Shown piece by piece: positions 25,939 through 27,147 of a DNA stretch of 64,000 bases (position 1 is its first letter; the number at the start of each line of letters is the position of its first letter). The stretch lies in UHGV virus genome UHGV-0060833; one strand, written 5' to 3'. The translations under genes were made by a program, and so were the position numbers. The notes under the pieces are model-generated. The model was not told the origin of the DNA and did no database searches. It saw nothing but the letters and a program-made list of their open reading frames with translations. This DNA is from a virus.

Positions 25939-27147
25939 TTAATTACTGACAGTTTCAGATTTTGGGAAACTGAACAGTAAATCACGATAGTACTCGTATT
26001 GTTTCTGGCGCAACTCGATTTCACGCGGGAGACCTTCGGTGATGGAGTTGGTCAGGGTGTCGAATTTATCGAGCAGAGCAGATATTCGCTCTTGTTTCTG
26101 TTTATCAGGCAATGGCACTGGTAATGTTTTTATAATATCTGCATTCAAGTTACTGACCGACCCGCTATTGATTTTACTTTCCCAATAATTTTTCACCTTT
26201 TTTGATGAAAGATAGTGATACAGATAATCAGTGTTTAATTTTTCACCAAAATTGCTGATTGATGCCCATCCATCATGGATAGCTCCGGTTATCCTTAAAA
26301 TATATGGTCTGCCAAAGCTCATAGAGTTAGAAATGACGAAATCACCAGGGTTCAAGATTCGCGATTTTTGGGCACCCTCTGCAGTTATTTTTTGTAAGGT
26401 TTTGTCAATGTATTTAGAGCCGGGGATAGTATCTCCGATTTTAATCCATGGGATACCATTTCCTTGTTCAGTAAGATAATTAACAATTGGCCTGGGGGAT
26501 GCCCCACGTTGGATTTTGGCTACTTCTCCCAAAGTCTTCCACTCAACCTCACCCTCTTTAAAACTCAACAACTGGTCGCGATAATAGTTGTACTGTTTTT
26601 TACGCATGTTAAGCTCAGCGGTAAGCTCAGCGGTAAGCTCAGCGGTAAGTGCAGTAAATTTATCCAGAATCCGAACGATTTCAGACTGGATGGCAAGGGA
26701 CTTTTCCGGGTTGTCCGGGCTAGGAATGGGAACTTTAAATCCTTCCAGCATGGGTTTTCTTATCGAAATGGCGGTAGCACCCACACTTTTTGTCAAGATG
26801 TACTGCTTAAAGCTAGATGACATGAAGTAATACAAAAACTTCGTGTCTACGGCATTAGTTGTGATACGAATTCTATACGCCCTTTGATGTAGAGCATATT
26901 TTCCCTCAACATAGTGAAATATGTCGCCAATTCCACCTTCACCAGGAATGACTATTGCTACCTCATCAAATTCAAAGGTATCTGACTTCAAGATATTCTT
27001 TGAGCGAACATAGAATGGATAAATTCCATTTTCGCTTTCATCCTGACGATTTGAACTTCCAGTACCGATATCTGCCATAGAACCCAATGTTACCCACTCA
27101 ACCTCAACCCCATCCAACAGTTTTTCCAGATAGCTCAGCTCGCTCAT
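25939..27147 (-). CDS. hsdS: Type I restriction-modification specificity subunit
   Basis: 402 aa with two TRD-like halves separated by a central region containing (TAEL)3; start overlaps hsdM stop. Confidence 0.85.
26612..26647 (-). repeat. Three perfect 12-bp tandem repeats encoding [12 protein letters not shown] in the hsdS central spacer
   Basis: AGCTCAGCGGTA x3 on plus strand (reverse complement ACC GCT GAG CTT), followed by a degenerate fourth unit. Confidence 0.9.

What the first reader, a model, noticed from the sequence alone, without database searches (positions are those of the whole stretch)
26612..26647. (TAEL)3 tandem repeat in hsdS: slipped-strand specificity switch
Three perfect 12-bp repeats (plus a degenerate fourth) encode [12 protein letters not shown] in the central spacer between the two target-recognition domains. 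In the EcoR124I/II paradigm, two versus three TAEL repeats change the spacer of the bipartite recognition site by one base pair. This copy number can expand or contract by slippage or unequal crossing-over, giving phase-variable restriction specificity.
Basis: partly seen in the sequence, partly recalled or inferred. Interest (0 to 1): 0.6.

Follow-up and report, generated by a model that had tools for sequence, protein, structure and literature searches.

The report
TAEL spacer repeat in phage-plasmid hsdS
A restriction-enzyme specificity gene on a P1-like phage-plasmid carries three copies of a 12-base repeat that sets the gap in its DNA target. Otherwise identical genes elsewhere carry two copies, so this is a real but textbook-type specificity switch, not a new mechanism.

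Summary
Three perfect 12-bp units lie at 26610-26649, in-frame at 26611-26646 on the minus strand. They encode [12 protein letters not shown] (aa 168-179) in the central conserved helix of a 402-aa HsdS, between two target-recognition domains (TRDs).

The operon hsdM-hsdS-hsdR is intact and belongs to the type IC (EcoR124) family. HsdM and HsdR match the EcoR124 subunits over their full length. The HsdS conserved regions are 86-98% identical to EcoR124 HsdS, but the TRDs are only 14% and 23% identical, so the half-sites are new.

The key result is a natural twin. Three E. coli plasmids carry an hsdS identical at all 1197 other positions but with two units, inside a 4.2-kb block with no other difference. 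Twins that differ only in unit number occur on at least eight other TRD backgrounds.

In E. coli complete genomes, about 53% of sampled records have two units and about 35% have three. Alleles with 4, 5 or 8 units were seen only in IS-disrupted systems.

The copy number therefore does change recurrently in nature. High-frequency "phase variation" and the one-base spacer shift are inferred, not shown. This is a new member of a known kind, hosted on a P1-like phage-plasmid.

The parts
27144..28706 (-). hsdM, 520 aa, type IC methyltransferase subunit
   Evidence: ORF. Pfam HsdM_N plus N6_Mtase. Full-length match to the EcoR124 M protein 7bst_D, 1154 bits over 1-520.
25939..27147 (-). hsdS, 402 aa, specificity subunit; overlaps the hsdM stop by 4 nt
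   Evidence: ORF and translation. Pfam Methylase_S, two stretches. EcoR124 HsdS 7bst_A, E=1e-79, aligned end to end.
26731..27081 (-). TRD1 (aa 23-139), first half-site reader
   Evidence: 14% identical to EcoR124 TRD1. 100% identical in DNA to TRD1 of pYLPD4a (L006), which has a different TRD2.
26524..26730 (-). Central conserved region (aa 140-208) forming the first coiled-coil helix
   Evidence: 64 of 65 alignable residues identical to EcoR124 HsdS; the only length difference is one extra TAEL.
26611..26646 (-). Three perfect 12-bp units ACC GCT GAG CTT = TAEL x3 (aa 168-179); the repeat array by TRF is 26610-26649
26074..26523 (-). TRD2 (aa 209-358), second half-site reader
   Evidence: 23% identical to EcoR124 TRD2. 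Matches TRD1 of the M. jannaschii S subunit 1yf2 (domain i-Evalue 7e-14).
25939..26073 (-). C-terminal conserved region (aa 359-402 plus stop), second coiled-coil helix
   Evidence: 43 of 44 residues identical to EcoR124 HsdS. Its segment I..LDKF...YYRD is 35 aa, the same length as the central segment with 3 TAEL.
22701..25817 (-). hsdR, 1038 aa, translocase-nuclease subunit, 121 bp downstream of hsdS
   Evidence: ORF. Pfam HSDR_N, SWI2_SNF2, T1R_D3-like, EcoR124_C. Full-length match to EcoR124 HsdR 2w00_A, 2282 bits over 1-1038.

Best explanation
This is an intact type IC (EcoR124-family) restriction-modification operon carried on a P1-like phage-plasmid. Its HsdS has two TRDs of new specificity, held apart by an antiparallel coiled coil.

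The first helix contains the 4-residue TAEL unit three times. By the established type IC rule, each unit adds about one helical turn and lengthens the non-specific gap of the bipartite target by 1 bp.

The window's allele is a +1-unit derivative of a much commoner 2-unit allele. It arose by in-frame duplication of one 12-bp unit, through replication slippage or unequal crossing-over within the perfect repeat.

It should therefore recognise the same two half-sites as its twin with a gap one base longer. That makes it a different restriction and methylation specificity.

Shown: the anatomy, the family membership, and the natural 2-unit/3-unit twin. Also shown: unit-number changes recur across the family, and 2 and 3 units dominate in intact systems.

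Inferred: the 1-bp spacer shift for these particular TRDs, the direction of change, the molecular mechanism of the change, and its rate. The rate fits an evolutionary-scale switch; classical high-frequency phase variation is not demonstrated.
For: - Repeat and reading frame.
- Type IC membership: hsdM-hsdS-hsdR order and Pfam domains. HsdR and HsdM match the EcoR124 subunits full-length at 2282 and 1154 bits. HsdS conserved regions are 86%, 98% and 98% identical to EcoR124 HsdS, TRDs 14% and 23%.
- Twin allele: plasmids CP062905, CP062860 and CP069714 have a 1197-bp hsdS. CP062905 was aligned and is identical at all 1197 shared positions, lacking exactly one unit.
- Against CP062905, a block of about 4.2 kb (window 24500-28500) has no difference other than this 12-bp indel. 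The flanks differ by about 2-7%.
- The 2-unit protein P0001 is on 140 contigs. The exact 3-unit protein is absent from the 15-billion-protein collection and is known from only three plasmid records. This points to 2 -> 3 as the direction.
- Recurrence: twins 99.7-100% identical outside the tract occur on other TRD backgrounds. These are L007/P0041, L014/P0066, L060/L062, P0012/P0014, P0019/P0040, P0123/P0128, L004/L162 and L005/L160.
- In the L004/L162 pair (5 vs 3 units), a synonymous GAA marker in the first unit is kept in both. That is what expansion in place would leave.
- Length classes: in 256 relatives the segment IVRILD..YYRD is 31 aa in 191, 35 aa in 61, 27 aa in 3 and 43 aa in 1.
- In an evenly spread sample of 60 of the 1341 matching E. 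coli records, 32 have 2 units, 21 have 3, one has 4 and one has 1. Ten of these assignments were checked on sequence and all were correct.
- Rule linking units to gap: PMC3874165 section 25; PMC7383803 discussion. BF23 authors converted EcoR124II to an EcoR124I variant by deleting one unit (PMC10644984).
Against: - No methylome or restriction data exist for either twin, so the half-sites and the N(x) versus N(x+1) prediction are untested for these TRDs.
- Three units of 12 bp is a short tract. Nothing here measures the switching rate.
- The three 3-unit plasmids may descend from a single event.
- Import of a 3-unit central region from another IC hsdS by recombination cannot be excluded. E. coli genomes hold up to 6 such places.
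- Three units is also simply the length at which the two helices are equal (35 aa each). Many 3-unit alleles may therefore be stable rather than 'switched'.
Confidence: 0.8

Rival explanations
1. True contingency locus. The tract slips at high frequency (about 1e-5 per generation or more) and reversibly within a clonal lysogen population. Every culture would then hold subpopulations with 2, 3 and 4 units and different restriction specificities, hedging against phage and plasmid invasion.
For: Unit number is the only difference in a 4.2-kb identical block. It differs between otherwise identical alleles on about nine backgrounds, so the tract mutates faster than several kb of sequence accumulates substitutions. 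Alleles with 1, 4, 5 and 8 units exist. From memory, the R124 <-> R124/3 switch was first seen as a spontaneous change in the laboratory (Glover et al. 1983, listed as ref. 199 in PMC3874165).
Against: Only three units are present, whereas known phase-variable tracts are usually much longer. The three 3-unit records are identical and could be one event. Complete assemblies give one length each, and no read-level heterogeneity could be examined. From memory, a sudden specificity change exposes unmodified host sites and needs restriction alleviation, which argues against very frequent switching.
Confidence: 0.15
2. Static linker. Three TAEL is simply one of the two standard lengths of the type IC coiled coil, as in EcoDXXI and EcoprrI. 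This allele would be a stable, long-lived specificity, and the repeat a structural feature with no ongoing switching role.
For: About 35% of sampled E. coli IC alleles have 3 units. With 3 units the central and C-terminal helix segments are both 35 aa. The review calls three the apparent optimum (PMC3874165 section 25). Some 3-unit alleles have diverged units at the DNA level, for example L165, suggesting age and stability.
Against: In this allele the three units are identical in DNA, and a 2-unit twin exists with zero other differences in hsdS. Its 2-unit form is far commoner (140 contigs). For this allele the 3-unit state therefore looks recent and derived.
Confidence: 0.15
3. The extra unit was imported by homologous recombination or gene conversion from another type IC hsdS whose central region already had three units. 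It was not generated locally by slippage.
For: The central conserved region is shared at 84-100% DNA identity by 1341 E. coli records, and single genomes hold up to 6 places. TRD reassortment across this region clearly happens: pYLPD4a has the same TRD1 and 3 units but another TRD2. The hsd cassette sits in a mosaic block.
Against: There is no substitution anywhere in the conserved flanks between the twins, so a donor would have to be identical there. In the L004/L162 pair the marker GAA first unit is retained in both alleles while identical GAG units are added, as expected for duplication in place.
Confidence: 0.12
4. Assembly or sequencing artefact in the repeat count.
For: None specific; short tandem repeats can be miscounted in noisy long-read assemblies.
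Against: The tract is 36 bp, well within a single read. Three independent complete plasmid records carry the identical 3-unit gene, and three others the 2-unit gene.
Confidence: 0.01

Closest known systems
EcoR124I / EcoR124II (plasmids R124 and R124/3), the type IC prototypes
   Same: Same gene order, and HsdM and HsdR match full-length. HsdS conserved regions are 86-98% identical, and the 12-bp unit ACCGCTGAGCTT encodes TAEL at the same place. A natural pair of alleles differs only by 2 versus 3 units, exactly like EcoR124I (GAA N6 RTCG) versus EcoR124II (GAA N7 RTCG) (PMC3874165).
   Different: Both TRDs are unrelated in sequence (14% and 23% identity), so the half-sites differ and are unknown. 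The carrier is a P1-like phage-plasmid, not (from memory) a conjugative R plasmid. No experimental specificity data exist.
EcoDXXI and EcoprrI (type IC, three TAEL units)
   Same: Three TAEL units in the central conserved region; a 7-bp gap is reported for these enzymes (PMC3874165 section 25).
   Different: From memory, EcoprrI has the prrC anticodon nuclease gene inserted in the operon. Here hsdS and hsdR are separated by only 121 bp with no extra gene.
NgoAV of Neisseria gonorrhoeae (LEAT/EATL repeats in hsdS)
   Same: Natural strain-to-strain variation in the number of a 4-residue repeat in the central HsdS helix changes the gap of the methylated motif (GAC N6 TGC vs GAC N7 TGC) (PMC6789123).
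   Different: Different species and repeat register. There the effect combines with a downstream frameshift that truncates HsdS (PMC6789123). Here HsdS is full-length.
Simple-sequence-repeat phase-variable hsdS/hsdM genes (Atack et al. 2020)
   Same: A DNA repeat inside a type I gene whose copy number alters methyltransferase behaviour. The authors themselves cite TAEL as the precedent for spacing changes (PMC7383803).
   Different: From memory, those tracts are long mono- to penta-nucleotide repeats that shift the frame and switch expression ON/OFF at high frequency. Here a 12-bp unit in 2-3 copies stays in frame and changes specificity rather than expression.
Inverting or shuffling hsdS loci (from memory: e.g. 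Streptococcus pneumoniae SpnD39III, Mycoplasma)
   Same: They generate alternative type I specificities from one locus.
   Different: They work by site-specific recombination between several hsdS copies with a recombinase. In the window's cassette hsdS sits alone between hsdM and hsdR with no second hsdS. The element's integrase gene (Cre-like in P1) lies about 9 kb away.

Membership tests
Type IC restriction-modification systems (EcoR124 family) | Three genes in the order hsdM-hsdS-hsdR, with hsdM and hsdS overlapping and hsdR following after a short gap | tested here: met
   hsdM 27144-28706, hsdS 25939-27147 (4-nt overlap), hsdR 22701-25817 (121-nt gap), all on the minus strand.
Type IC restriction-modification systems (EcoR124 family) | HsdM and HsdR closely related in sequence to those of EcoR124I | tested here: met
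   HsdR matches 2w00_A over 1-1038 of 1038 residues at 2282 bits. HsdM matches 7bst_D over 1-520 of 520 at 1154 bits. Pfam EcoR124_C domain present.
Type IC restriction-modification systems (EcoR124 family) | HsdS with two variable TRDs flanked by family-specific conserved N-terminal, central and C-terminal regions | tested here: met
   Conserved regions are 86%, 98% and 98% identical to EcoR124 HsdS; TRDs are 14% and 23%. Pfam Methylase_S has two stretches.
Type IC restriction-modification systems (EcoR124 family) | 12-bp TAEL repeat in the central conserved region | tested here: met
   Three perfect units, aa 168-179.
Type IC restriction-modification systems (EcoR124 family) | Subunit complementation and antibody cross-reaction with EcoR124I (the classical family definition) | not testable with these tools
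   Needs genetics or biochemistry.
TAEL-number specificity switch (EcoR124I/II type) | Alleles with identical TRDs that differ only in unit number | tested here: met
   Window versus CP062905: 1197 of 1197 other positions identical, with a 12-bp indel. Further twins.
TAEL-number specificity switch (EcoR124I/II type) | Unit number changes the gap of the bipartite recognition sequence by 1 bp per unit | not testable with these tools
   Needs methylome or cleavage data for both twins. Supported only by analogy (PMC3874165, PMC10644984).
Phase-variable (contingency) locus | Repeat tract that is hypermutable relative to the surrounding sequence | tested here: inconclusive
   The indel is the only difference in a 4.2-kb block, and twins occur on about nine backgrounds. 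This indicates raised mutability, but no rate can be derived and selection may favour new specificities.
Phase-variable (contingency) locus | Frequent, reversible switching within a clonal population | not testable with these tools
   Only consensus assemblies are available; no read-level or culture data.

The most novel reading that the evidence does not exclude
The TAEL tract is a general, recurrently used contingency site of the whole type IC family, and it is under stabilising selection. This would create new specificities without touching the TRDs. Once hsdM or hsdS is broken by an insertion sequence, the tract would drift to 4, 5 or 8 units. That drift would reveal an intrinsic expansion-prone mutability that selection normally masks. 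On phage-plasmids, such flips would let sibling elements restrict each other and re-draw their exclusion groups.
Probability: 0.35. Interest if true: 0.45.

Novelty: new member of a known kind. Interest (0 to 1): 0.3.

Why it matters
If the prediction holds, the two plasmid lineages form a ready-made natural EcoR124I/II-like pair with different half-sites. That gives a second, independent test of how one extra helical turn in one strand of the HsdS coiled coil is accommodated, which the Loenen review lists as unresolved (PMC3874165 section 25).

The survey done here also suggests that unit-number change is a routine route to new type I specificities in E. coli and its plasmids and phage-plasmids, not a one-off curiosity of R124. 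This bears on predicting methylation motifs from sequence and on barriers to plasmid and phage spread.

None of this changes the known mechanism.

Tried and rejected
- Cluster look-up to find 3-unit members hidden inside 90% clusters was uninformative. Most clusters are singletons, and the window's exact protein is not in the collection.
- Inferring unit number from BLAST identity bands alone underestimated 3-unit alleles. I replaced it with span differences in an evenly spread sample, checked on 10 fetched loci.
- A synthetic 5-unit query meant to list all alleles with 4 or more units was confounded, because overlapping pieces are joined into one place. It added only one new record (G4/9). 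The list of alleles with 4 or more units is therefore a lower bound.
- My first idea, that every out-of-range copy number sits in a broken system, was rejected in that form. The 1-unit allele P0040 lies in an apparently intact operon. The idea survives only for 4 or more units, and on just 2-3 independent lineages.
- Price et al. 1987 (PMC553956) is not held, so no published switching frequency could be cited.
- Searches for papers on P1-like phage-plasmids with type I systems, or naming these protein accessions, found nothing useful. The half-sites of the two TRDs could not be assigned because no REBASE-like resource was available.
- Metagenome and viral scans found no further copies of this exact allele, only more distant IC relatives.

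Full report
**1. The observation**

Tandem Repeats Finder reports a single array at 26610-26649: period 12, 3.3 copies, 100% matches, unit TAAGCTCAGCGG on the + strand. It is the only perfect array in the whole window. A two-unit probe matches nowhere else, and none of 100 dinucleotide-preserving shuffles gave a match.

The gene lies on the minus strand. ORF 25939-27147 (402 aa) reads ...[42 protein letters not shown].... In codon register the three units ACC GCT GAG CTT occupy 26611-26646 (aa 168-179).

The "degenerate fourth" copy is weak. The array continues for only 4 nt. The preceding F-T-A-L codons share 6 of 12 bases with a unit (my count).

**2. What the gene and its neighbours are**

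The ORF is the middle gene of a minus-strand operon. hsdM is 27144-28706 (520 aa), hsdS is 25939-27147, and hsdR is 22701-25817 (1038 aa).

Pfam gives HsdM_N plus N6_Mtase for the first gene and Methylase_S (two stretches) for the second. For the third it gives HSDR_N, SWI2_SNF2, T1R_D3-like and EcoR124_C.

Against solved structures, HsdR matches EcoR124 HsdR over 1-1038 at 2282 bits. HsdM matches the EcoR124 M protein over 1-520 at 1154 bits.

HsdS aligns end to end with EcoR124 HsdS (7bst_A, E=1e-79). Split by region, identity is:

| Region | Identity to EcoR124 HsdS |
|---|---|
| N-terminal conserved region | 86% |
| TRD1 | 14% |
| Central conserved region | 98% |
| TRD2 | 23% |
| C-terminal conserved region | 98% |

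The only length difference in the central region is one extra TAEL. This is therefore a type IC system with the family's constant scaffold and two TRDs of different, unknown half-site specificity.

With three units, the central helix segment (IVRILD...YYRD) is 35 aa. The corresponding C-terminal segment is also 35 aa.

**3. The host element**

The identical hsd cassette lies on E. coli plasmids of 92-110 kb. In these it is flanked by phd/doc, pdcB, lpa, pacAB, c1, cre and ref. Phage P1 matches both flanks but not the cassette. Phages vB_EcoM-673R5 and phi456 carry the cassette.

The window is thus part of a P1-like phage-plasmid. It also encodes DarB, DdrB and DarA anti-restriction proteins.

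**4. Does the copy number vary?**

Yes, and on this very allele.

- Three plasmids (CP122597, AP027786, MK256965) carry the identical 3-unit gene.
- Three others (CP062905, CP062860, CP069714) carry a 1197-bp version.
- Aligned with CP062905, all 1197 shared positions are identical and exactly one unit is missing.
- Over 9.5 kb the two elements differ at 170 aligned positions. None of these lies between about 24500 and 28500 except the 12-bp indel.

The unit change is therefore the only event since this 4.2-kb block was last shared.

The 2-unit protein (P0001) is found on 140 contigs. The 3-unit protein is absent from the 15-billion-protein collection. The 3-unit state is probably derived.

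**5. Is this peculiar to one allele?**

No. After masking the tract, I compared 256 HsdS relatives: database proteins, E. coli loci, and viral and metagenome loci. Twins 99.7-100% identical elsewhere but of different tract length appear on these other TRD backgrounds:

- L007/P0041
- L014/P0066
- L060/L062
- P0012/P0014
- P0019/P0040 (2 vs 1 units)
- P0123/P0128 (1 vs 2 units)
- L004/L162 (5 vs 3 units)
- L005/L160 (5 vs 4 units)

In the L004/L162 pair a synonymous GAA marker in the first unit is kept in both alleles, while the extra units are identical GAG units. That is what duplication in place predicts.

**6. Distribution of copy number**

In those 256 relatives the segment is 31 aa in 191, 35 aa in 61, 27 aa in 3 and 43 aa in 1.

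In E. coli complete genomes the central region is found in 1341 records of 1255 genomes. An evenly spread sample of 60 rows gave the following:

| Units | Records |
|---|---|
| 2 | 32 |
| 3 | 21 |
| 4 | 1 |
| 1 | 1 |
| Unclear | 5 |

Ten of these assignments were checked on sequence and all were right.

Rarer alleles have 5 units (at least 21 records) and 8 units (2 records).

**7. Copy number and operon integrity**

All five fetched loci with 4 or more units sit in systems broken by insertion sequences.

| Locus | Units | Damage |
|---|---|---|
| L003 | 8 | IS1 in hsdS, hsdM truncated |
| L004 | 5 | hsdM cut by IS2 |
| L172 | 5 | hsdM lost, hsdS truncated |
| L005 | 5 | ISEc45 in hsdS |
| L160 | 4 | ISEc45 in hsdS |

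Among eleven 2- or 3-unit loci examined, eight are intact.

However, the five broken loci represent only two or three independent lineages. A 1-unit allele also sits in an apparently intact operon. I therefore treat this as a lead, not a result.

**8. Mechanism**

Established knowledge: EcoR124I (2 units) recognises GAA N6 RTCG and EcoR124II (3 units) recognises GAA N7 RTCG. The extra unit moves the TRDs about 0.34 nm apart and rotates them by about 36 degrees. EcoDXXI and EcoprrI have three units. Hybrids with altered unit numbers changed specificity as predicted, and the change is ascribed to unequal crossing-over at the repeat (PMC3874165 section 25; also PMC7383803, PMC10644984). NgoAV shows the same principle with LEAT repeats in natural gonococcal strains (PMC6789123).

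Because the conserved helices here are 98% identical to those of EcoR124, I infer two things. The window's enzyme recognises its two (unknown) half-sites with a gap one base longer than its 2-unit twin. The two plasmid lineages therefore have distinct restriction and modification specificities.

Not shown: the motifs, the rate, and whether slippage, unequal crossing-over or conversion from another IC hsdS made the change.

**9. Verdict**

The word "phase-variable" goes beyond the evidence. What is demonstrated is recurrent change on evolutionary time, faster than point substitution over several kilobases. Frequent reversible switching within a clone is not demonstrated.

The mechanism is textbook. 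The allele, its phage-plasmid host, the natural twin and the family-wide survey are additions to a known kind.

Noticed in passing
window 41522-48289 (-), 55422-58409 (-), 58784-60703 (-): The same element that carries the type IC restriction system also encodes DarB-like (2255 aa, methylase plus helicase domains), DdrB and DarA 'defence against restriction' proteins. From memory, these are P1's capsid-borne anti-type-I-restriction functions.
   Followed up: partly
window 39195-40235 (+) and surroundings: No type III res/mod ORFs (P1's own EcoP1I system) were seen among ORFs of 250 aa or more in the window. A YaaC-like ORF lies between the ref-side genes and darB. The type IC cassette sits elsewhere, next to phd/doc.
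   Followed up: partly
window 24500-28500 versus CP062905 (L002): Mosaic structure. A block of about 4.2 kb (5' part of hsdR, hsdS, hsdM) is identical apart from the 12-bp unit, while the flanks differ by about 2-7%. This suggests recent exchange of the hsd cassette between P1-like plasmids.
   Followed up: partly
L006 (pYLPD4a, NZ_CP074008) 2572-3792: Its hsdS has TRD1 and three units identical in DNA to the window, but a different TRD2 (65% DNA identity downstream). This is an example of TRD reassortment across the central conserved region. There the cassette lies next to hot/humD rather than phd/doc.
   Followed up: partly
L003 (CP050031), L004 (CP075462), L172 (CP060073), L005 (NC101 group), L160 (CP116948): E. 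coli chromosomal type IC hsdS alleles with 8, 5, 5, 5 and 4 TAEL units. All lie in operons disrupted by IS1, IS2, IS3-family or ISEc45 elements, most of them next to tRNA-Leu/ahr.
   Followed up: partly
L161 (CP041435) 4532-4612; L170/L171 (P0040): One-unit alleles. L161 reads [10 protein letters not shown], with a junction that looks like a deletion between the degenerate FTAL copy and a true unit, in an IS3-disrupted operon. P0040 (374 aa) has one TAEL in an apparently intact hsdMSR operon.
   Followed up: partly
window 830-934 and 978-1019: Tandem 21-bp repeats, unit TCCCGCCAGCACACATCGTTA, about 5 copies. From memory they resemble P1 RepA iterons. A 281-aa ORF at 2123-2968 (-) lies nearby.
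   Followed up: no
window 7490-7565, 7568-7643, 9075-9150 (+): Three tRNA genes: Asn, Thr, and a CAT-anticodon tRNA called Met by ARAGORN. From memory, this matches the P1 tRNA set.
   Followed up: no
window 28884-29484 (+): The phd/doc addiction module is transcribed divergently from hsdM, about 180 bp away (coordinates mapped from the annotation). The restriction cassette thus abuts the plasmid-stability toxin-antitoxin pair.
   Followed up: no
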